Shown one piece after another: positions 9,028-19,387 of a stretch of 36,296 bases of DNA. This stretch comes from Acidiferrobacteraceae bacterium (GTDB taxonomy: Bacteria; Pseudomonadota; Gammaproteobacteria; Acidiferrobacterales; Acidiferrobacteraceae). Positions within the stretch are counted from its first letter, which is position 1, and each line of letters opens with the position of its first letter. The notes under the pieces are model-generated. The model was given only the letters and a program-made list of their open reading frames with translations, did no database searches and had not been told where the DNA came from. Where the stretch lies: assembly GCA_027343725.1 (NCBI GenBank), contig DAHWKH010000148.1:1-36296 (forward strand). The letters run 5' to 3'. The translations under genes and the position numbers were made by a program.

Positions 9028-11049
9028 TTACCGTTGCCACCGCCACCAGGCCTCGAAGTCGGTGACCGCGAGCGGCTGCGCAAAGTGATCGCCCTGCCCG
9101 ATGTCACAGCCGAGGTCGGCGAGGATCGCCCGGACGCTCTCGGTCTCGATCCCCTTGCCGACGACGGTAAGCCCGAGGCCGTGACCCAGATCGATGATCG
9201 AACGCACGATCACGCGGTCGTTGCGGTTTGCCTGAAGATCGGTCAGGAAGGATTTGTCGATCGCGATGCCGGCGATGGGGAGGCCGCGGAGATGGAACAG
9301 CGAGGAGTCGTCGCTGCCGAAACCCTCGATCGAGACCTTGACACCCTGGCCATTCAGAAATCGGATCGTCTGTTGCACACGCTCGGGGTCGCGCATCAGG
9401 GCCGTTTCGGACATTTCCATTTCAATGAGAGAGGGTGCGATGCCCGCCTCCCGGAGGAGGCGCTCCACGTGTTGCGGGAATTGGGTGTCCTCGAGATTGA
9501 TGGCGGAGATGTTGACCGCGACCGGCAGCGGGTGCCCGGCATCGGCCCAGCACCGAGCCTGATGCGCCGCCTGGCGCAAGACCTCGAGGGTGAGGGCTTC
9601 GCTGAGATGCGCGCGTTCGGCGACGGGCACGAAGCGCGCCGGCGCCAAGAGGCCGAGTGTCGGGTGTTGCCGGCGCACGAGTGCCTCGACGCCGCGGGTC
9701 GTGCCGGATGCGAGATCGACGCGGGGCTGGTAGTGCAATAGGAGTTCCCCGTGCGTAAGCGCGCGCTCGAGATCGGCTTTCCCGTGCAGGCGGTCGTTGC
9801 CTTCCGCTTCCATTGCGGTCTCGAACAGGGCGTACCCGAGGCGCTTGCGCTTGGCTTCGTACATCGCGCAGTCGGCGCGCCGCAACAGGTCCCCGACGTC
9901 CTCGCCGTGCCGCGGGCAAAAGGCCGCCCCGGCGCTCGCCGTGATACGCACCGTCTCCGCGCCGAGCGTCACCGGTTCCGCCAGCGCGCCCAGGAATGAG
10001 CGTGCCCGGGCTTCCGCGTGCTCGGGGGCGGCGACCGCCGGCAAGAGGAGGGCAAACTCATCACCGCCCAGGCGCGCCACTGTGTCCGACTCGCGCGCAT
10101 TCGCCACCAGGCGCTGGGCCATGACTTGCAAGAGGCGGTCACCCGCCTCATGGCCGGTCGCGTCGTTGATGTCCTTGAAGCCGTCGAGGTCCAGGATCAT
10201 GAGCACGAAGGGGCGTTCGTCCCGGCGCTGCGCACGGATCGCCTGCAGTAGGCGGTCCTTGAGCAGGATGCGGTTGGGGAGTCCCGTCAGGGAGTCGTGT
10301 GTGGCCAGATAGGCGAGCTTGCGATTGGTGTCGGCGAGGGTCTGGGTGCGCTCATGGACACGCGCCTCCAGTTGCGCGTTCAGGGCCACGACCTCCTGGT
10401 GGCGGCGGTCGGCGATCGCCTGCAAGTCCGCAAGCTTCGCCGACATCGCGTTGAAGCCCGCTATGAGGCGCGCGAGTTCGTCGCGCCCGGCCAGCGGCAG
10501 CCGGAATCCGAATTCGCCGTTCGCGATGCGCGCGGTCCCCGACTCGAGCGCTGTGATCTGGCGCATGAGATAGCCGCCGAGCAGCCAGGAAAAGAGACCG
10601 GCGAGCAGCATCTCGCTGACGGCGATCACCAGGATCCGACGCTGGTCGGCGCGCAGCGTCGCGCCGAAGCCGTGGGGTGAGAGGCCGACCTCCACCTCCC
10701 CGTACCGGGTGCCGTCCACGGCGATATGGTCGACGCGCCGGATCAGCACCCTGGTCTCCGCGCGACCGGCCCGCGCCAGCACCCGCCCGCGCCCGTCGCG
10801 GGCGGCGGCATACACGACACCCGGTTCGCGCGCGACCTCGCGCACGATCCGGCGCAGGGAGGCGACGTCCTCGCTGATGAGGGCATTCGCGCACGCCGCC
10901 CCGAAGAGGCGCGCATCGCTTCGGGCACGCAGCGCGAGCGCGTGGCGTTGGGATTGGGAGAGGACGGCGAGGCTGCTGATGAGGATGGCCGACAGGAAGA
11001 GCGCCTCGATGAGCGCGATCCCGACGATCATTTTGGAGCGAAAGGGCAT
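9028..11049 (-). CDS. Membrane HAMP-GGDEF-EAL protein (intact GGDEF, degenerate EAL)
   Basis: Two TM segments around a periplasmic domain, HAMP (GRDELARLIAGFNAM), HDSLTGLPNR, DLDGFKDIND, RLGGDEF. The EAL domain has VEALVR but IEGFGSDDSS, IAIDKSF and VGKGIET in place of the catalytic motifs. Confidence 0.9.
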   Translation of the reverse strand: MPFRSKMIVGIALIEALFLSAILISSLAVLSQSQRHALALRARSDARLFGAACANALISEDVASLRRIVREVAREPGVVYAAARDGRGRVLARAGRAETRVLIRRVDHIAVDGTRYGEVEVGLSPHGFGATLRADQRRILVIAVSEMLLAGLFSWLLGGYLMRQITALESGTARIANGEFGFRLPLAGRDELARLIAGFNAMSAKLADLQAIADRRHQEVVALNAQLEARVHERTQTLADTNRKLAYLATHDSLTGLPNRILLKDRLLQAIRAQRRDERPFVLMILDLDGFKDINDATGHEAGDRLLQVMAQRLVANARESDTVARLGGDEFALLLPAVAAPEHAEARARSFLGALAEPVTLGAETVRITASAGAAFCPRHGEDVGDLLRRADCAMYEAKRKRLGYALFETAMEAEGNDRLHGKADLERALTHGELLLHYQPRVDLASGTTRGVEALVRRQHPTLGLLAPARFVPVAERAHLSEALTLEVLRQAAHQARCWADAGHPLPVAVNISAINLEDTQFPQHVERLLREAGIAPSLIEMEMSETALMRDPERVQQTIRFLNGQGVKVSIEGFGSDDSSLFHLRGLPIAGIAIDKSFLTDLQANRNDRVIVRSIIDLGHGLGLTVVGKGIETESVRAILADLGCDIGQGDHFAQPLAVTDFEAWWRWQR

Positions 11050-11848
11050 CACCACCGGCCCGCCGCGGCCTGATATTCCGCGTCCGAGGCGCGCACGAAG
11101 CCCGTAAACCCAAGACGCGCAAGGGCCTCGGGCACGACGCGCGGCAAGCGCAGGAGCCCTACCCGCAGGCGCGTCACGAGGGCGTGCGGCAGATCGCGGC
11201 GCGCGGCGAAGGGGTGCGTGAGCGTCTGAGGGCCGGCCCACAGGATGCGCAAACGCCGGCGCAACGCCGGCGCAACGCCGGCGCGAGCAGGTCGTAGGTC
11301 CGGCGGATGCCCCCGCCGCCTACGAAAAGTCCCATGGCCACCGCACGATAGACGGAGTCGTGCGATCCCACGTAGCGCGCCCGAAAGGCGATGTGCGCGT
11401 CCTTCAGGACGTGCCGCGGCTCGATCGAGGCCGCGAGCGCGTGGCGCGCCGGAAACGCGAGCGTGTGTCCCGTGAGTCCCGTGAGCGTGTGTACGGGGCT
11501 TGTACGGCGCACCACGAGGATACCCTGAAGCTGGCCGCGTCTTCGGGCAAACGCGCGATAACGTTTGCGGTTGCGGATGCAATCGGCGGGATTCAGGTAG
11601 ACCACGTCATACGCCCCGCGCGCCACCCGGCGCTCGAAGGCCGTGATCGTGGGCGCCGTGCGCAACGCAAGCCGCACGCCCGCAAGCCGCGACCAGGCCT
11701 CGAGGACCGGCGTCCAGCGCTGCGCAAGCGTCCACGGGCTCATCTGCGGCACGATGCCGATCGTGAGCGGGCGCTCGCGCGCGCAGGTCGCAGCCGCCAG
11801 GACCCCGAGGAACACGCCCACAAGCGCTCTTTGGCCGGACCGCCCCAT
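11049..11848 (-). pseudogene. Phosphate/phosphonate-type periplasmic binding protein (PhnD-like), frameshifted
   Basis: The N-terminal frame (LTIGIVPQ...GILVVR...LAFPARHALAAS...VGSHDSVYRAV..G) switches frame at 11252-11284. The second frame continues RLRILWAGPQTLTHPFAAR...GFVRASDAEY to a TGA overlapping the GGDEF start (TGATG). Confidence 0.85.
11252..11284. repeat. 11-bp tandem repeat AACGCCGGCGC x3 causing the frameshift
   Basis: Exact copies at 11252-11262, 11263-11273 and 11274-11284. With two copies the gene reads LLAPALRRRLRILWAGP in a single frame. Confidence 0.92.
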
Positions 11849-11919
11849 ATCCACCCCCTGACCGTACAGGAAAACTATAGATCAGGCGCGGCGTCCCCGG
11901 GTGAGGGCGCGCGGGGTGG

Positions 11920-12879: not shown

Positions 12880-13239
12880 TCAGGAGCTTACCGGCGCATA
12901 GAGGATGCAGTATCCCATGGGGGCGATCCGTCCTTGCACCAGCTGGCAGGTCCCGGCCTTCATCATCGCGCCCCGCCCGCCCATCATGCCCATCATGCCC
13001 GGGCCTTTGTGACCCATCATCCCGTGGCCCGCGCTGCCACCGGGGGGGATGAAGTGGATACACATGCCGCACATCTTGCGGCCGTTCGGGTGGTCCTGGT
13101 AATGCACCGCCGCTTTCGCAAGCTTGTGCGCAGGCGGCGCGCGCAGGGCGAGCGCCGGGGCGGTAAAGGCCGCGCCGATCAGGGCGGCGAGGCCCTTGAG
13201 CCAGGAGCGGCGCGAGAGGCGTTTCGGGAATGAGGTCAT
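12880..13239 (-). CDS. Tat-exported high-potential iron-sulfur protein (HiPIP, Iro-like) with Met/His/Gly-rich insertion
   Basis: Tat motif LSRRSWLK, then AKAAVHYQDHP, CGMC..F, C-QLVQGRIAPMGY-C, giving the four HiPIP Cys ligands. 37 residues lie between Cys2 and Cys3. Confidence 0.88.
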   Translation of the reverse strand: MTSFPKRLSRRSWLKGLAALIGAAFTAPALALRAPPAHKLAKAAVHYQDHPNGRKMCGMCIHFIPPGGSAGHGMMGHKGPGMMGMMGGRGAMMKAGTCQLVQGRIAPMGYCILYAPVSS

Positions 13240-13400
13240 CGTTGCGATTCCAGGACAGATCGCGGACATCCTCGCACCACCGGGAGGAGGGGGCAAGGAC
13301 TTGCGTCCCCTGTCGGCTCCCGTGCCGTGGAAGGTCGCGTTGGGGCTTGCGCTTATCAACCCCCGCTCCCAATGGCTCCGCCTGCGACTCGCCGTCCGTT

Positions 13401-13428: not shown

Positions 13429-13691
13429 GGTTTGTCTCGGCCCCTGCACGGACGGCCCTCGGCGCCCAAGATCCCCGAGACCTCGCGCTCGGGCCGACCG
13501 ATGGTTTTGGCAGGGGGAGTCGTCAGCGGGCGGGGCCTTGGTTGTCTTGGCGAAGTCTCCCGTGCGTTTGTCTTTGGAGCCGATCGTCTCTCTGGATATG
13601 GTGAGGCGAGCGGGGGACGCAAGCCCGGGGCGTGATCAGGACCGGAGGTTCCCGCCGGAATGGGACGGTGCTCTCGGCTGCGGCACGTGCC

Positions 13692-13721
13692 TTGACAGGG
13701 GACGGCGGGGTTTGCGAACAT
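13692..13721 (+). promoter_or_regulatory. Candidate sigma70 promoter for the leader ORF / efflux operon
   Basis: Perfect -35 TTGACA (13692-13697) and weak -10 GAACAT (13716-13721). ATG follows at 13728 with no SD. Confidence 0.4.
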
Positions 13722-13727
13722 CCCCGC

Positions 13728-14060
13728 ATGCGCGCGGCTCGCTTACGGCGTTTCATCAACCCCCTGCTCCTGGTGGCCTGGCTTGCGGTCCTCCTCGGGT
13801 GTCTGGCATCGCCTGCCCATCGGACAGGCCATACCGCCCCGGATTGCGCCGCGGTCCACAGTGCCATTGGCTTGCAGGCGCCCGCCAAGGTCGCCCCTCA
13901 CCACCCTGGGGTCATGGCCCTGGTCGTGATCGCGGCCTGTCTTGGCCTCCTCGTGTTGCCGGTCGCCTTGTCGCGTCCCACCTCCTTGGGCGCGCCCGCG
14001 CTCAGCCGTCGCAGGCGCCCCGCGCAACCGAACGCCCCACCCGCCTTCTCTCACGCATAA
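13728..14060 (+). CDS. Putative exported leader/arrest peptide (DUF2946/CruR/CutF/CzcI-like architecture)
   Basis: 110 aa: basic N-terminus and hydrophobic signal, HRTGHTAPDCAAVH, HH, a second hydrophobic stretch, and C-terminal RRRRPAQPNAPP. Directly upstream of the efflux operon. Confidence 0.65.
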   Translation: MRAARLRRFINPLLLVAWLAVLLGCLASPAHRTGHTAPDCAAVHSAIGLQAPAKVAPHHPGVMALVVIAACLGLLVLPVALSRPTSLGAPALSRRRRPAQPNAPPAFSHA

Positions 14061-14108
14061 AGACACCCGCGCCGATTCGCGGCGCGATCCCAGTCGTTTG
14101 AGAAGGTG
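14042..14108 (+). promoter_or_regulatory. Putative translational attenuator (anti-SD/SD stem) for the efflux operon
   Basis: CGCCTTCTC (14042-14050) can pair with GAGAAGGTG (14100-14108, the SD before ATG 14111; one G-U pair). It encloses the hairpin CGCGCCG-ATTCG-CGGCGCG (14068-14086). Confidence 0.6.
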
Positions 14109-14110
14109 TT

Positions 14111-15376
14111 ATGGACACAAAAGCCACGCGCGCGTGTCGGGCCGCACTCGCGCTCATCGTCGCAATGGCCTGGTCTGCGCATGCCCCCGCCGATGTTCTG
14201 AGTTTGGGTTTGGCGGAGCGCCTCGCGATGCGCGACAATCCCTTCATTCAGGCCGCTCGCCCGGGCATCACGGCCGCGCGCGGCCAAGCGCGGCAGGATC
14301 GGTTGTGGCCGGACCCGCGATTGACGGTTTCCGGGGGCGTTGGGGGCCCCTTGGGCAGTCCCGGGGAATTCAGCAGTCGCGCCATGGTGACGCAGGCCGT
14401 GCCGCTCACCTCCCGGATCGCCCGCGACGCGCAGGTCGGGCTGGAGGGCGTTGATGTTGCGCGCTGGCGATTCCGGACCCTCGCTTGGCGCCTGCGCGCG
14501 ACGGTGGCGATCGCCTATGCGCGCCTTTTAAGCGCTCTGGCGGCAGTCCCGATCGCGCGCGCTCTCGTTGCAACGAACACACGGCTTTATCGCTTGGCGC
14601 GCGCCCGCGCCCAGGCCGCGCAGATATCCCCGCTCGTCGCCGGCAACGCGCGGCTTTTGCGCAACGAGGCGCGCTTAACCCTTGATCACTGGCGTGCCCG
14701 GCGGCACGCGGCCCGCATGGCGCTCGCGCGCGCCATGGGATACGCGCCGCCTCGGCCGTGGGCCGCCCTTGCACCCGTGTCCTGGCGGCCGCCCCGTGAG
14801 GCGGCGGCCCTGCGCGACGCCCTTGTGCGCCGCCCGGATCTGCGCCTTGCCCGGCAGACGCACGCCTACGCGCGCGCGCAGCACCGCTATCAACGCGCGC
14901 GCCGCTTCGGTTGGCTGACCATCGGCGCGGGTGTCGGTTGGGACCGCCAAGTCCTGCGCGGCGTGCCTTCGCAACCCATCGATCGCGCCCTGGCCCTCAG
15001 CGCCTCGCTGCCCCTACCGTTCTGGAACCGCAATCAAGGGAACCGCGCCGCGAGCCGGGCCGCGGCCCTGGCATCCGGCGCGCGCGTGCGCGCATTGCGC
15101 TGGGAGATCCGCCGCGTGGTCCGTCAGGACGTCTTTCGCGTGCATGTCCTCACGGCGCGCGCGCATCGCTACGCGCGCTTGCGCCGCCGCGCGCGTGCAG
15201 CCGAAGCCCTTGCCTTTCAGGGGCTGCGGCTGGGTCAGGTGCGCACGGCGAGCACCATCGCGGTATTCACGGAACAACTCACCATCACCCGCACGTGGCT
15301 TGCGACCTTGCGCGCGTTGGCCAAGGCGCGCATGCGCCTGCGCATCGCCCTGGGCGGCCCCGGGGAGGGCCCATGA
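14111..15376 (+). CDS. TolC-family outer-membrane efflux protein (CzcC/CusC-like)
   Basis: Signal peptide, A...NP.I.AAR, WPDPRLTV, AL.RRPDL, SLPLPFWNRNQG. First gene of an OMF-MFP-RND trio. Confidence 0.88.
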   Translation: MDTKATRACRAALALIVAMAWSAHAPADVLSLGLAERLAMRDNPFIQAARPGITAARGQARQDRLWPDPRLTVSGGVGGPLGSPGEFSSRAMVTQAVPLTSRIARDAQVGLEGVDVARWRFRTLAWRLRATVAIAYARLLSALAAVPIARALVATNTRLYRLARARAQAAQISPLVAGNARLLRNEARLTLDHWRARRHAARMALARAMGYAPPRPWAALAPVSWRPPREAAALRDALVRRPDLRLARQTHAYARAQHRYQRARRFGWLTIGAGVGWDRQVLRGVPSQPIDRALALSASLPLPFWNRNQGNRAASRAAALASGARVRALRWEIRRVVRQDVFRVHVLTARAHRYARLRRRARAAEALAFQGLRLGQVRTASTIAVFTEQLTITRTWLATLRALAKARMRLRIALGGPGEGP

Positions 15377-16272
15377 CCAAACACCTTCTGGCGCTCATCA
15401 TGACAGCGCTTGTCGTACACCCCTTACCGGCGCGCGCCGCGCGCACACCATGGGTGCGTCTCAGCGCCGCCGCCGCGCGCGCGATCGCTTTGCGGGAGGT
15501 CCCGGTCCGGACTCGGGTCTTGCGCGAGCGGCGCACGCTCTACGGCCACTTCGTGTTGCCACCCGGGGCGGAGGCGGTGGTCACCCCGAGGATCCGCGGG
15601 CGCGTGACAGCACTGTACGCCACGATCGGCGAGCACGTCCGGCGCGGCGCGCCGCTCGCGCGCATCGAGTCCCTGCTGGTCGGCACGCCGCCCCCGAGCG
15701 TCGTGGTGCACGCCCCCCTGAGCGGGGTCGTGGAGGCGCGCCCGGCCCTTTTGGGCGAGGCGGTGGCCCCCGGCACGCTCCTCTATCGCCTGATCGACCC
15801 GAAAACCCTGTGGCTCAAGGCCTTTGTCTATCAAAAGGACATCGCCTTGATCCACCACGGGCGGAGGGTGCGCATCCGGGCGCTGGGTCTCTCCCGGCCC
15901 TTGACGGGCCGTGTGACCCTGATCGCGCCGGGCATCAACCCCCGGCGCGGCAGCGAGACTGTTTGGATCCGCCTCGTCGGTCCCAAGGCCCCCGTAAAGC
16001 CGAGGCTCTTTGCCCGCGCGCGCGTGACGGTCGCGCGCGCACGGGCCTTGTCCGTGCCGCAAGGTGCGGTGCTGCGGGTCAACGGCCGTCGGGCCGTGTT
16101 CGTGAGCGCCGGGCACGGTCGCTTCCGCTATACGCCGGTCGTGACCGGGATCCATGCGCGCGGGTTTGTCGCCGTGTCGGGGCTTGCGCGCGGCAGCCGG
16201 GTGGTAACGCAGGGCAACGCCGAGCTGTTCGCGATCTGGACCGCGGGTGGCCGGTTGCGGGCGGGCGGCTGA
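15373..16272 (+). CDS. RND efflux periplasmic adaptor (MFP, CzcB/CusB-like)
   Basis: VTPRIRGRV..LYATIGEHVRRGAPLARI, V.APLSGVV, LSVPQGAV, GLARGSRVVTQG. ATGA overlap with the OMF gene. Confidence 0.88.
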   Translation: MTKHLLALIMTALVVHPLPARAARTPWVRLSAAAARAIALREVPVRTRVLRERRTLYGHFVLPPGAEAVVTPRIRGRVTALYATIGEHVRRGAPLARIESLLVGTPPPSVVVHAPLSGVVEARPALLGEAVAPGTLLYRLIDPKTLWLKAFVYQKDIALIHHGRRVRIRALGLSRPLTGRVTLIAPGINPRRGSETVWIRLVGPKAPVKPRLFARARVTVARARALSVPQGAVLRVNGRRAVFVSAGHGRFRYTPVVTGIHARGFVAVSGLARGSRVVTQGNAELFAIWTAGGRLRAGG

Positions 16273-16273
16273 C

Positions 16274-19200
16274 ATGGGGGATTGGTTGATCGCGCTTTCG
16301 CTGCGCAGCCGCGCGCTTGTGATCGGTCTCTTCGCGATCCTGACGGGCCTTGCCGTGCTCGCCTGGCGCAGCATGCCCATCAACGTCTTTCCCTCCTTCG
16401 CGACACCGCGGGTGGTGATCGGCACCACGCTGCCCGGCATGGCCCCGCGCGACATGGAAGCGCTCGTGACCTACCCGATCGAGACCGCGGTGAGTGGGAC
16501 CATGGGCGTGCGCGTCGTGCGCTCCAAGACGACGCTTGGGACCTCGCTTGTGACCGTGGTCTTTCACGGCGGCACCAATATCTATCACGATCGGCAGTTG
16601 ATCGCCGAGCGCCTGCAGGACCTGCAATCGCGACTCCCGGCGGGTGTCCGCGGACCGGAACTCTTCCCGCTCACGTCCGCCATCGGCTGGCTCGTGAAAT
16701 ATTCCCTCACGAGCTCGCTCTGGCCCGCGCAACACTTGCGCACGCTCGCCGACTGGGTCATCCGACCGCGGCTGCTGGCCGTCGGCGGCGTCGCCGACGT
16801 CGCCGATATCGGTGGGGCTGTTACGCAGTATCAGGTGGCACTCGACCCGACCGCCCTGCGCGCCTACCACGTGAGCCTGCACGACGTCGCGCGCGCCTTG
16901 CACGGCGCAAGCCGCGACCTCCCGGGCGGTGTCGTCAACACGCCGGCGCAAGAGCTGGCGGTCTCGGCCGCCGGGCGCCTCTATGCACGTAATGCCCGCG
17001 CGCGCCTGCGCCATACGGTCGTGGCGCTACGCGCGGGCCTGCCGATCACGTTGTCGCAGCTGGCGAAGATCCGGCGCTGGCACGCCATTCGCCTGGGTTC
17101 GGCAGCGCTCGGGTCAGAGCCGGCGGTCGTCGGGACCGTGTACAAGGCCTACGGCGCGGGCACCATGAGCACGACCGCGCGCGTGCTCAAGGCCTTGCGC
17201 TCGGTGCGCCGGGCCTTGCCGCCGGGCGTGCGTCTCGATACCCATATCTTTCGCCAGTCGACCTTCATCAAGGCCGCGATTCACAACTTGTGGACGGCAC
17301 TCTGGCAAGGGGCGCTCATCGTGATCCTGGTGCTCCTTGTGTTTCTCGCGAACTGGCGCGCCTCGCTCGCGACCTTTATCGCCCTGCCGGCGTCGTTCGC
17401 CCTGGGCGCCTTGATCCTCTATGCCTTTCATGCGGGCGTGAACGCGATGACCTTGGGAGGTCTGGCGGTCGCGATCGGCGAGGTCGTCGACAACGGCATC
17501 ATCACCGTCGAAAACATCGTCCGGCGCCTGCGCACGGCACCCCCCGATGGGGGCGGCACCGACACACTCATTCGCAGCGCCGTACGGGAAGTGCTCGATT
17601 CCATCGTGTATGCAACCCTGATCGTCATCCTGGTGTTTCTGCCGGTGTTTTTCCTGCAGGGCCTCGCGGGGCGCATCTTCACGCCGCTTGGCATCGCCTA
17701 TCTCGCCACCATGCTCGCCTCGCTCGTCGCGGCGGTGACCTTGTTGCCGGCGCTCTGTTCGCTGCTCTTTGGCCGCATCGATGTCGCGCGCGCAGCGGAC
17801 CGGCGCGAGACCGGACTCGTGCGCTTTCTGAAACGCCATTACCGGCGGCTCCTGGGATCCGTCCTGCCGCGATCGCGCGCCGTCTTTGCCGTCGCCCTCG
17901 TGGCCGTGATCGCCGCGGGCGTCGGGTTCGCGCATCTCGGGCGCTCGTTTTTGCCCGCGTTTCACGAGGGCGATTACATCCTGGTCATGACCACCTTGCC
18001 CGGGACCCCGTGGCGCGAATCGATGCGCCTGGGCGCGATCGTGCGCCACGACCTGTCGGCCTTTCCGCAGGTGGTCTCCATCGACCAGCGCGCCGGTGCC
18101 GGGACCCTCACGCCCGGGGCCAATACCCCCAATACCTCGGAATTCGATATCCGCATCCGGTTCCATCGCGGCTCCGCGTCGCCCCACCGGCTCCTGCGCG
18201 CCATCCGCGCGCGCTTGGCGACGATCCCCGGCGTCGCTTTCAATCTCGGCCAATTCATCGCCCACCGCATTGATGATGTGGAGTCGGGCGTGCCGGCGGA
18301 CGTCGCGGTTAAGATTTACGGTCCGAGCCTGCGCCGCCTGTATGGTCTCGGCCAGGCCGCGCAACACGCCATCGGGTCGATCCCGGGGATCGTCGATTTG
18401 CACCTCGAGCAGCAGATCCGCGTGCCACAGATCGTGATCACGCCGCACCGGCGGCGCGATGCCCGTTATGGCGTGCCCGTCGGGCGTCTCTTGCGCGACG
18501 CCAACTGGTATCTGAACGACGCGCCGCTCGGCCACGTCCTGCGCGGACCACGACGGATCGCCATCACCCTGCGCGCACAGCACAACGCCCGCCGTTCGGC
18601 CCGGGCGCTCGGGCGCCTGCCGATACGCGCCCCGGCGCTCGGGGCGCGCGCCTCGCTGCCGCTTTCGGAGCTCGCCTCGATCAGAACGCGCCCGGTGCCG
18701 TTTGCAATCCGCCGCGCCCACGGTCATCGCGTCTTGTTGCTCACTTTCGATGTCGCCGGGCGGCCCCTGTCGCGGGTCGTCCATGAGGTCAAGGCGCGCA
18801 TCGCGCGCGACGTCGCCCTGCCGCGCGCGTATTTCGTGCGCTACGGTGGGACGTTCCGGAGCCAGAGGCGCGCCAACACCACTTTGTGGCGCCTCGGTCT
18901 CCTGGCGCTCATCGTCTCCGGCCTTCTGCTCCAAAAGGCCTTCGGTTCGCTGCGCGATGCCCTGCTCGTGCTCGTCAACCTGCCACTCGCCCTAGTCGGT
19001 GGGGTGCTCGCGTTGATCGTGACCGGGGCGACCCTCAGCACCGCCGCCGTCATCGGGTTCATCGCGCTGTTCGGTATCACCGCACGCAACGGGATCATCC
19101 TGATCAGCCATTACAAGGACCTTGAGGCCGACGGCCGGCCCCTCGACGAGGTCGTGACCGAGGGTACGCTCAATCGCCTGGTGCCGATCCTCATGACCGC

Positions 19201-19387
19201 GATCACGCCCGCGCTCGGGCTCCTCCCGCTCCTGTGGGGGTCGCCGGTCGGTAAAGAGCTGGAGCGCCCGCTCGCCGAGGTGGTGCTCGGGGGCCTGATC
19301 ACCTCGACCCTCCTGAATCTCGTGGTGATCCCGAGCGCCTATCGTTTCTTACGGGCGGGTGCTTCGCGGTCGGGGAGGGGGCGATAA
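16274..19387 (+). CDS. Heavy-metal efflux RND permease (CzcA/CusA family)
   Basis: About 1037 aa; MPINVFP, VTYPIE, TM4 NAMTLGGLAVAIGEVVDNGIITVEN, GFIALFGITARNGIIL, RLVPILMTA, PLA.VVLGGLITSTLL. Confidence 0.93.
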   Translation: MGDWLIALSLRSRALVIGLFAILTGLAVLAWRSMPINVFPSFATPRVVIGTTLPGMAPRDMEALVTYPIETAVSGTMGVRVVRSKTTLGTSLVTVVFHGGTNIYHDRQLIAERLQDLQSRLPAGVRGPELFPLTSAIGWLVKYSLTSSLWPAQHLRTLADWVIRPRLLAVGGVADVADIGGAVTQYQVALDPTALRAYHVSLHDVARALHGASRDLPGGVVNTPAQELAVSAAGRLYARNARARLRHTVVALRAGLPITLSQLAKIRRWHAIRLGSAALGSEPAVVGTVYKAYGAGTMSTTARVLKALRSVRRALPPGVRLDTHIFRQSTFIKAAIHNLWTALWQGALIVILVLLVFLANWRASLATFIALPASFALGALILYAFHAGVNAMTLGGLAVAIGEVVDNGIITVENIVRRLRTAPPDGGGTDTLIRSAVREVLDSIVYATLIVILVFLPVFFLQGLAGRIFTPLGIAYLATMLASLVAAVTLLPALCSLLFGRIDVARAADRRETGLVRFLKRHYRRLLGSVLPRSRAVFAVALVAVIAAGVGFAHLGRSFLPAFHEGDYILVMTTLPGTPWRESMRLGAIVRHDLSAFPQVVSIDQRAGAGTLTPGANTPNTSEFDIRIRFHRGSASPHRLLRAIRARLATIPGVAFNLGQFIAHRIDDVESGVPADVAVKIYGPSLRRLYGLGQAAQHAIGSIPGIVDLHLEQQIRVPQIVITPHRRRDARYGVPVGRLLRDANWYLNDAPLGHVLRGPRRIAITLRAQHNARRSARALGRLPIRAPALGARASLPLSELASIRTRPVPFAIRRAHGHRVLLLTFDVAGRPLSRVVHEVKARIARDVALPRAYFVRYGGTFRSQRRANTTLWRLGLLALIVSGLLLQKAFGSLRDALLVLVNLPLALVGGVLALIVTGATLSTAAVIGFIALFGITARNGIILISHYKDLEADGRPLDEVVTEGTLNRLVPILMTAITPALGLLPLLWGSPVGKELERPLAEVVLGGLITSTLLNLVVIPSAYRFLRAGASRSGRGR

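What the first reader, a model, noticed from the sequence alone, without database searches (positions are those of the whole stretch)
13728..14113. Candidate ribosome-stalling, metal-sensing attenuator (NAPP leader peptide) gating a heavy-metal RND pump
Seen: a 110-aa ORF with a signal-like N-terminus, an H-x3-H-x4-C-x3-H cluster and a C-terminal NAPP (codons 14031-14042). The nucleotides from the last Pro codon onward, CGCCTTCTC (14042-14050), are complementary to the SD region GAGAAGGTG (14100-14108) of the OMF gene, and a 7-bp GC hairpin between them brings the two close. Established: exported leader ORFs such as Bordetella CruR (DUF2946, CxxC + RAPP) and Rhodobacter CutF control downstream copper genes post-transcriptionally, and RAPP-type motifs cause ribosome arrest. 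Inference: a ribosome paused at Pro-Pro would cover the anti-SD and free the efflux RBS. The NAPP variant, the His-rich rather than CxxC sensor and the efflux target would make this an unusual member. I cannot tell whether it has been described.
Basis: partly seen in the sequence, partly recalled or inferred. Interest (0 to 1): 0.82.

Follow-up and report, generated by a model that had tools for sequence, protein, structure and literature searches.

The report
NAPP-tailed leader gating metal pump
A small conserved membrane-protein gene ending in Asn-Ala-Pro-Pro precedes a heavy-metal efflux pump, and its last codons are predicted to pair with the pump's ribosome-binding site, so it likely switches pump translation on when a ribosome pauses there, probably in response to a metal; such leaders are published, but I found no report of this tail.

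Summary
The 110-aa ORF is a real gene: it precedes the same efflux outer-membrane gene in 8 of 8 loci, dN/dS is 0.18-0.63, and C25, H35, C40, H44 and QPNAPP are invariant in 20 aligned homologues. The hairpin hiding the pump's ribosome-binding site folds in all 8 loci (z -3.5 to -5.0; weak covariation). A footprint at Pro-Pro lowers the computed opening cost from 7-13 to 3-6 kcal/mol. Best reading: a CutF-like translational attenuator of an HME5-like RND pump (0.55). Stalling, the signal and the metal are untested. The efflux target is not unusual: outer-membrane efflux genes are the commonest published neighbours of CutF-like leaders, and His-rich clusters are described. It is not DUF2946 by HMM. 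What I did not find in print: the NAPP core, which alternates with the tested QAPP and HAPP in a second family found here; a two-helix hairpin with a fixed 56-59 residue sensor-to-motif spacing; and a predicted leaderless transcript. Against: Arg-to-Asn abolishes arrest in ApcA, ApdA and ApdP, and a terminating ribosome would open the stem too. The scan noted similar leaders on other DNA. Verdict: new variant of a known kind, 0.42.

The parts
13692..13721 (+). Predicted sigma-70 promoter: -35 TTGACA (13692-13697), 18-bp spacer with TG extension, weak -10 GAACAT (13716-13721). The start codon lies 6 nt after the -10, so the transcript is predicted to be leaderless.
   Evidence: Same layout (TTGAC[A/C/G], 18 nt, xAxxx[T/C], start codon 6-7 nt later, no SD-like word) in 8 of 8 loci, with unrelated DNA further upstream. 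The consensus scan does not call it (0 sites). No RNA data.
13728..14060 (+). Leader gene, 110 aa, CutF-like; no Pfam or NCBIfam family
   Evidence: homologues; dN/dS
13752..13808 (+). Hydrophobic helix 1 (signal anchor or signal-like), ending in invariant Cys25
   Evidence: no signal-peptide predictor available
13800..13859 (+). Candidate metal site C25-x9-H35-x4-C40-x3-H44 (H31 nearly invariant), predicted periplasmic loop
   Evidence: Invariant in 20 of 20 aligned sequences; metal binding inferred
13911..13967 (+). Hydrophobic helix 2 (res. 62-80), followed by an Arg-rich stretch
   Evidence: 19-residue hydropathy maximum 2.0-2.9 in the 28 of 30 proteins with both motifs; helix 60-82 in the model
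14025..14042 (+). QPNAPP, candidate ribosome-pause motif; predicted P-site Pro codon CCA at 14037-14039
   Evidence: 27 of 29 homologues QPNAPP, 1 QQNAPP, 1 without; CCA in 8 of 8 loci against 6.4% of Pro codons in the genome
14042..14050 (+). Anti-SD strand, inside the last leader codons
14068..14086 (+). Apical 7-bp GC hairpin of the sequestering stem
   Evidence: 89% of cells paired across 8 loci
14100..14108 (+). Shine-Dalgarno region of the outer-membrane gene, paired in the stem
14111..15376 (+). Outer-membrane efflux protein (PF02321)
   Evidence: ATG 47-51 nt after the leader stop in 8 of 8 loci
15373..16272 (+). Periplasmic adaptor (HlyD_D23; CzcB-like, below cut-off)
16277..19387 (+). 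Heavy-metal RND transporter (TIGR00914, 721 bits against cut-off 701), HME5-like; lacks the CusA Met triad

Best explanation
A conserved leader gene whose last codons are predicted to pair with the pump's ribosome-binding site likely acts as a translational switch: a ribosome would pause at Asn-Ala-Pro-Pro, the pause would probably be prolonged by metal binding to the exported Cys/His loop, and this would unpair the site and let the efflux operon be translated. Steps: (1) a predicted leaderless mRNA starts at the leader's ATG (inferred from the promoter layout). (2) Helix 1 targets the nascent chain to the translocon and puts C25-H44 outside (inferred). (3) At NAPP the last His is 56-59 residues from the motif (shown), about enough to have crossed tunnel and membrane, while helix 2 is at the tunnel exit (inferred). 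(4) Without metal the weak Pro-Pro pause would be resolved, probably with EF-P (gene present), the stem refolds and the pump stays low. With metal the pause would last (by analogy with CutF, untested). (5) A ribosome with the first Pro in the P site covers +13 to +15 and so breaks the basal helix (computed). The metal is undetermined; a divalent ion such as Ni or Co, or Cu(II), fits an HME5-like pump better than Cu(I)/Ag(I).
For: Gene is real: 6 of 6 orthologous pump loci with upstream DNA carry it; 7 of 14 other genomes of the genus; dN/dS 0.18-0.63 in 28 of 28 pairs. C25, H35, C40, H44 and QPNAPP are invariant in 20 sequences at 36-44% identity to the window's protein. Spacing is 56-59 in the 28 of 30 proteins with both motifs. 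Stem in 8 of 8 loci, 0 of 200 shuffles as stable in each; anti-SD helix 91% paired with 2 two-sided and 2 one-sided changes. SD-core opening cost falls from 7.2-12.7 to 2.7-6.1 kcal/mol at a +15 footprint; in the 7 orthologous loci it is almost unchanged at +9 and drops at +12 to +15. The stall register (third residue in P site, fourth in A site) is published for RAPP peptides. The rare CCA codon is kept in 8 of 8 loci; CCA is linked to stronger pausing in PMC8129111. A second family ends WPNAPP in 31 of 32 proteins and WPHAPP in 1; a distant member ends WPQAPPR before a CopA multicopper oxidase. QAPP and HAPP peptides arrest in vitro, and the Asn of NAP-stop is needed for arrest (PMC10987492). 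CutF works by this logic.
Against: No experiment and no RNA data. All 19 substitutions of Arg, Asn included, abolish arrest in ApcA, ApdA and ApdP (PMC12992588 section 7), so NAPP is not a drop-in RAPP. A ribosome near the stop codon opens the SD at least as well (1.1-3.7 kcal/mol at +21 to +27), so plain coupling is not excluded. Covariation is thin: 3 pairs, 18 of 500 shuffles, and two slid controls also show 3 such pairs; 8 related sequences, structure derived from them. In the orthologues a +15 footprint leaves the upper helix paired (up to 6 kcal/mol left). In the second NAPP family the one intergenic region tested against shuffles has no significant stem (z +0.65) and two of three loci use CCG-CCC. 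Homology of the two families is not shown (hhalign probability 11%). If the host is an acidophile (homologues named Acidiferrobacter), His ligands may be protonated in the periplasm (own knowledge).
Confidence: 0.55

Rival explanations
1. The same pause-and-stem switch, but the signal is not a metal. It would report membrane insertion (SecM/MifM-like), the C25-C40 disulfide state, or protonation of the His residues.
For: Two-helix hairpin with helix 2 ending 18-29 residues before the P-site Pro; N-in/C-in double-helix monitors are described; two invariant Cys; likely acidophile host.
Against: The target is a metal pump, not Sec/YidC. Three His/Cys residues around one predicted helix are invariant. 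Related leaders precede copper oxidase and efflux genes.
Confidence: 0.15
2. CruR-like control of Rho-dependent termination: the paused ribosome hides a C-rich rut site, and the stem is secondary.
For: The 30 nt from the Asn codon hold 12-17 C and 3-6 G in 8 of 8 loci. Rho is encoded. Synonymous positions of NAPP are frozen.
Against: The patch is short, partly forced by Ala/Pro codons, and runs into a stable hairpin. The gap is 47-51 nt against 162 nt in cruR. CruR logic represses on metal, the wrong sign for an exporter.
Confidence: 0.1
3. Plain translational coupling: any ribosome finishing the leader melts the stem, with no regulated stall.
For: Footprints at +21 to +27 open the SD most. 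R-to-N kills arrest in three tested peptides.
Against: Does not explain invariant QPNAPP, the rare CCA codon, the fixed 56-59 spacing or the invariant Cys/His.
Confidence: 0.12
4. The protein acts after translation, as a small membrane metal chaperone or accessory subunit of the pump (as once suggested for CzcI and CutF), and the stem only damps expression.
For: Two hydrophobic helices and purifying selection along the whole gene; CzcI lacks the proline motif.
Against: Strongest conservation is in a predicted unstructured Pro-rich tail. CutF and CopL do not act in trans.
Confidence: 0.08

Closest known systems
CutF of Rhodobacter capsulatus and 'CutF-like' proteins (PMC9973294 / bioRxiv 2022.11.11.516240; bioRxiv 2025.02.05.636593)
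   Same: Short exported leader, Cys/His site, C-terminal Pro-Pro, short gap with a stem over the next gene's SD, metal-detoxification target. RND outer-membrane genes are the commonest listed neighbours.
   Different: NAPP instead of PPP; C-x9-H-x4-C-x3-H instead of CxxxC; second hydrophobic helix; no cleavable signal shown; predicted leaderless mRNA; no detectable sequence similarity to any library family.
CruR of Bordetella pertussis, DUF2946/PF11162 (PMC9426467; arrest shown in PMC12992588)
   Same: First gene of a metal operon, N-terminal export signal, xAPP a few residues before the stop, fixed sensor-to-motif spacing.
   Different: No CxxC, no RAPP, spacing 56-59 against 45 +/- 2, no PF11162 match. 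CruR represses an importer through Rho, has a 162-nt gap and a start site 45 nt upstream.
RQH-family arrest peptides (RAPP, QAPP, HAPP) and uDF_NAP-stop (PMC10987492, PMC10951233)
   Same: xAPP near the C-terminus of a membrane-targeted small ORF; Asn-Ala-Pro occurs in NAP-stop with Asn required.
   Different: Those precede sec/yidC genes. NAPP is not among the motifs in the passages read. NAP-stop arrests at termination.
nieI and czcI at the head of nieIC-cep-nieBA (HME5) and czcICBA operons of Cupriavidus (PMC7060636)
   Same: Small gene heading a heavy-metal RND operon; the pump here shares part of the HME5 HRLDH motif (HRIDD).
   Different: CzcI lacks the proline motif. nieI was not compared here.

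Membership tests
DUF2946 / CruR (PF11162) | Match to the PF11162 profile | tested here: not met
   0 of 7 and 0 of 20 members at E<=10; 0 of 19 family genomes (control rang in 2 of 14). Language-model neighbour at 0.91 with PF11162 in 40% of members is a lead only.
DUF2946 / CruR (PF11162) | CxxC motif | tested here: not met
   The two Cys are 15 residues apart
DUF2946 / CruR (PF11162) | C-terminal RAPP about 45 residues after the Cys motif | tested here: not met
   NAPP; 56-59 residues after the last His
CutF-like proteins (rule set of PMC9973294) | Shorter than 150 aa with Pro-Pro in the last 15 residues | tested here: met
   110 aa, 5 residues after Pro-Pro; 2-6 in homologues
CutF-like proteins (rule set of PMC9973294) | Next gene on the same strand within 1000 nt, in metal homeostasis | tested here: met
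   47-51 nt to an OEP gene in 8 of 8 loci
CutF-like proteins (rule set of PMC9973294) | Cys and/or His candidate metal motif | tested here: met
   C25, H35, C40, H44 invariant
CutF-like proteins (rule set of PMC9973294) | Sec or lipoprotein signal peptide by SignalP | tested here: inconclusive
   Basic N-terminus plus hydrophobic helix; no predictor available; LWAC/LWVC/LWTC fit a lipobox poorly (recalled consensus)
CutF-like proteins (rule set of PMC9973294) | Hit by the authors' jackhammer profiles / presence in list D | not testable with these tools
   File S1 not held; Fig. S6 logos are images
CutF mechanism | Stem-loop over the downstream SD within reach of the stalled ribosome | tested here: met
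   Computed only:
CutF mechanism | Metal-induced stalling, EF-P dependence, action only in cis | not testable with these tools
   Needs bench work; EF-P gene present
RQH arrest peptides | R, Q or H at the first position of xAPP | tested here: not met
   Asn in 28 of 28 homologues that have the motif; N/H/Q alternate in the second family
CusA-type (HME4) Cu(I)/Ag(I) pump | Periplasmic Met triad (M573, M623, M672; numbering recalled) | tested here: not met
   Aligned to V570, T620, D667; the adaptor has Met only at 1 and 10
HME5 pumps (NrsA, NieA, cyanobacterial CopA) | Clade membership and His motifs such as HRLDH | tested here: inconclusive
   Cyanobacterial pumps are among the best plasmid hits (38-39%, below Legionella hits at 48%); HRIDD keeps one of two His; no tree built

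The most novel reading that the evidence does not exclude
NAPP is a fourth natural xAPP arrest core: a deliberately weak, EF-P-resolvable pause, translated from a leaderless mRNA, that is locked on when metal binds a Cys/His loop held between two membrane helices in the acidic periplasm of mine-drainage bacteria. It would give the first mechanistic case of an arrest peptide switching on an RND efflux pump.
Probability: 0.35. Interest if true: 0.65.

Novelty: new variant of a known kind. Interest (0 to 1): 0.42.

Why it matters
Only CutF and CruR have been worked out among metal-sensing leaders (in the papers read), and neither controls an RND pump, although pumps are the commonest predicted targets. 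This family is small, alignable and has an invariant tail, so it is a clean test of two open points: whether Asn can replace the 'irreplaceable' Arg in its own context, and how ligand binding can prolong rather than release a stall. It would also add a post-transcriptional layer to metal resistance in mine-drainage bacteria. The class itself is no surprise.

Tried and rejected
Pfam, NCBIfam and Rfam gave nothing for the leader or stem. The AlphaFold model (20 sequences, pLDDT 70, pTM 0.30) gives three helices but no reliable fold, and Foldseek found no PDB match. DNA patterns for QxNAPP and PNAPP-stop across 61 and 6 genomes matched at about the rate of their reversed controls and were dropped. 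The upstream GTG at 13632 and TTG at 13692 were rejected as starts: they lie before or on the conserved promoter and are not kept in orthologues. The consensus promoter scan found nothing; a genome-wide count of the promoter layout was too sparse to be informative. No RNA holder listed. Contigs of four DNA runs from one study showed no variant letters; one may be the source of the window. The metagenome scan gave 2 loci: one near-identical to L029, one cut before the motif; neither was counted. P0030 found only itself. The second-family profile found 0 of 400 genomes scored in the class, 1 not scored. Four of ten orthologous pump loci (L021, L023, L025, L026) end at a contig edge before the leader and were left out of the 6 of 6. 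P0027 (divergent tail) and P0029 (N-terminal fragment) lack one motif each. The iron-oxidase gene upstream is not kept in orthologous loci, so it is not part of the system.

Full report
Observation. Downstream lie an outer-membrane efflux gene, an adaptor and a CusA/CzcA-family RND transporter. The leader has no Pfam match and no meaningful NCBIfam match.

The leader is a gene. The RND protein has 80-81% orthologues at 10 loci in 9 of 14 other genomes of the genus. Six of these loci reach far enough upstream and all six carry the leader; four end at contig edges. A profile search finds it in 7 of 14 other genomes of the genus and 0 of 4 genomes of other genera in the family; the seventh locus also precedes the outer-membrane gene. 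Protein searches give 28 homologues plus one distant one; the named ones are Acidiferrobacter sp. or an unclassified gammaproteobacterium, so I infer that genus for the window. Across 20 aligned sequences at 36-44% identity to the window's protein, C25, H35, C40, H44 and Q100-P105 are invariant. Of 29 homologues, 27 end in QPNAPP, one in QQNAPP and one has another tail. dN/dS is 0.18-0.63 in all 28 pairs of the 8 loci, with dS above 1 between the window and the others. Two of the eight loci are nearly identical, so there are at most seven independent ones, all related.

Anatomy. Hydropathy and a low-confidence model agree on two hydrophobic helices (about 9-27 and 62-80) around a loop and helix that carry the Cys/His residues. 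Basic residues before helix 1 and after helix 2 suggest both ends inside and the loop outside (inference). The last His lies 56-59 residues before the Asn in all 28 of 30 proteins that have both motifs, and helix 2 ends 18-29 residues before the first Pro. The first Pro codon is CCA in 8 of 8 loci, against 1252 of 19453 Pro codons and 32 of 1155 Pro-Pro pairs (CCA-CCC) in 565 long ORFs of the genome. PMC8129111 (passages) links CCA to stronger pausing in E. coli; an RNA constraint could also explain it. In 8 of 8 loci a -35 box, 18 nt and a -10-like hexamer end 6-7 nt before the start codon, there is no SD-like word, and DNA and genes further upstream differ. I read this as a leaderless transcript from a self-contained cassette. 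The window's -10 is weak and the scan tool does not call it. CruR has a 45-nt leader; 'leaderless' does not occur in the main text of the CruR or CutF mBio papers.

The stem. Segments from the anti-SD to the ATG, chosen by me to span the stem, fold into the same long hairpin in 8 of 8 loci, z -3.5 to -5.0, 0 of 200 shuffles each. On the alignment, 90% of 183 cells pair against 40-50% in slid controls. Three pairs change on both sides (18 of 500 shuffles; two slid controls also have three). The anti-SD helix has two such pairs and two one-sided changes. This is modest support, and the alignment misplaces parts of two rows. Geometry: RAPP peptides stall with the third residue in the P site (PMC10951233 passages; PMC12992588 section 7). 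Counting from that Pro, the anti-SD starts at +6 in the window and at +12/+13 in the orthologues, which have two more codons between the motif and the anti-SD. Forcing +1..+15 single-stranded lowers the cost of opening the SD core from 7.2-12.7 to 2.7-6.1 kcal/mol; in the orthologues a +9 footprint does almost nothing. A 13-15 nt reach of the ribosome is from my own knowledge. A ribosome near the stop codon opens it further (1.1-3.7), so the calculation shows that a pause can work, not that it is needed.

Is NAPP an arrest core? Against: all 19 replacements of Arg abolish arrest in ApcA, ApdA and ApdP. For: natural QAPP and HAPP peptides arrest and need their first residue, and NAP-stop needs its Asn (PMC10987492 passages). 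The nearest non-orthologous pump (51% identity, another family of the order) is headed by a leader ending WPNAPPR. Its 32 homologues end WPNAPP in 31 cases and WPHAPP in one. Its profile finds 3 of 103 genomes of the order: two before outer-membrane efflux genes and one, ending WPQAPPR, before a CopA multicopper oxidase. Three of 20 members touch PF11162 at E 0.08 at best. So Asn, His and Gln alternate at that position in one family of metal-operon leaders. That family is not shown to be homologous to the window's, has CC instead of the His/Cys motif, and the one intergenic region tested against shuffles lacks a significant stem.

The pump. It passes TIGR00914 and is about equally far from ZneA and CusA. 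The CusA methionines (numbering recalled) align with V570, T620 and D667, and the adaptor has no Met beyond residue 10. Legionella (48%) and cyanobacterial (38-39%) pumps are the best plasmid hits. The HRIDD motif resembles HRLDH of HME5 NieA (PMC7060636 passages). I call it HME5-like; characterised members export Ni or Cu, so the metal stays open.

Mechanism. A pause opens the SD, so pause means pump on, and for an exporter the metal should prolong the pause, as in CutF (bioRxiv 2025.02.05.636593, first part of the text and passages). A weak, EF-P-resolvable core fits that logic (inference; EF-P is encoded). I put 0.85 on a cis-acting leader working through the stem and 0.55 on the whole metal-prolonged-pause model. 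Rivals: non-metal signal 0.15, plain coupling 0.12, Rho control 0.10 (C-rich patch in 8 of 8, Rho encoded), trans-acting protein 0.08.

What is known. PMC9973294 (passages of the preprint and the paper, sections 11 and 25, supplement search) lists 5,334 CutF-like proteins, with RND outer-membrane genes as the most frequent neighbours and two His-only clusters. Source data of PMC12992588 show RAPP uORFs enriched 16-fold before RND adaptors, 5.5-fold before TolC and 28-fold before CusA/CzcA genes. In my own sample, 7 of 12 non-orthologous RND loci have a Pro-Pro-tailed small ORF directly before the outer-membrane gene (one locus was cut short). The arrangement is therefore common. The leader fails the DUF2946 tests (profile, CxxC, RAPP, spacing; PMC9426467 passages and section 10) and meets the looser CutF-like rules that I could test. 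NAPP as an arrest motif was not found: 0 papers with 'NAPP' and 'arrest peptide', no relevant title among the 15 of 29 listed for PNAPP-type strings, none in the main texts of PMC12992588 and PMC10987492. Unseen material may bear on this: File S1 and the Fig. S6 logos of PMC9973294, file 10 and the cut part of file 8 of PMC12992588 (22 of 24 'napp' strings not viewed; the two seen were internal), preprint supplements, and subscription journals. PMC8456105 and PMC8277102 were seen as passages only. Earlier notes of this scan describe similar leaders before metal pumps in other genomes; none matched this sequence or held the strings PNAPP or WPNAPP. They agree with, but do not support, my reading.

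Verdict. Real, conserved and well placed; a new variant (NAPP core, two-helix sensor, predicted leaderless start) of the published CutF/CruR kind; every functional step is untested. Interest 0.42.

Noticed in passing
L031:2597-2983 (-) = G034:C170; L097:1453-1914; L098:1483-1884: A second leader family ending LWP[N/H/Q]APPR with a CC motif, before outer-membrane efflux genes or a CopA oxidase; 32 homologues, faint DUF2946 similarity, longer gap to the next gene and no significant SD stem in the one locus tested against shuffles.
   Followed up: partly
L032, L033, L035, L036, L037, L040 (upstream of outer-membrane genes): Unrelated small exported His/Cys ORFs ending RAPP, RPP, PPP or QPP head six more RND operons in the same order.
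   Followed up: no
window 12880-13248 (-): Iron oxidase (Iro/HiPIP-like, below the NCBIfam cut-off) with a Tat signal and a Gly/Met/His-rich insertion that splits the profile match in two.
   Followed up: no
window about 11049-11854 (-): The phosphonate-type binding-protein gene seems to change frame near its 3' end: the expected tail reads in a neighbouring ORF. Frameshift or assembly error.
   Followed up: no
L049:264-1448 (-) = G008:C2: The leader and stem are intact but the outer-membrane gene stops at 296 aa next to a transposase-like ORF, and this genome has no close orthologue of the RND gene.
   Followed up: partly
L095:1249-1626 (Acidithiobacillus caldus plasmid): A related pump has a divergent ArsR/SmtB regulator and no Pro-Pro leader was seen, so related pumps may use either transcriptional or leader control.
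   Followed up: no
G001:C47 and G001:C71: One genome holds two copies of the orthologous pump; only one could be checked for the leader.
   Followed up: partly
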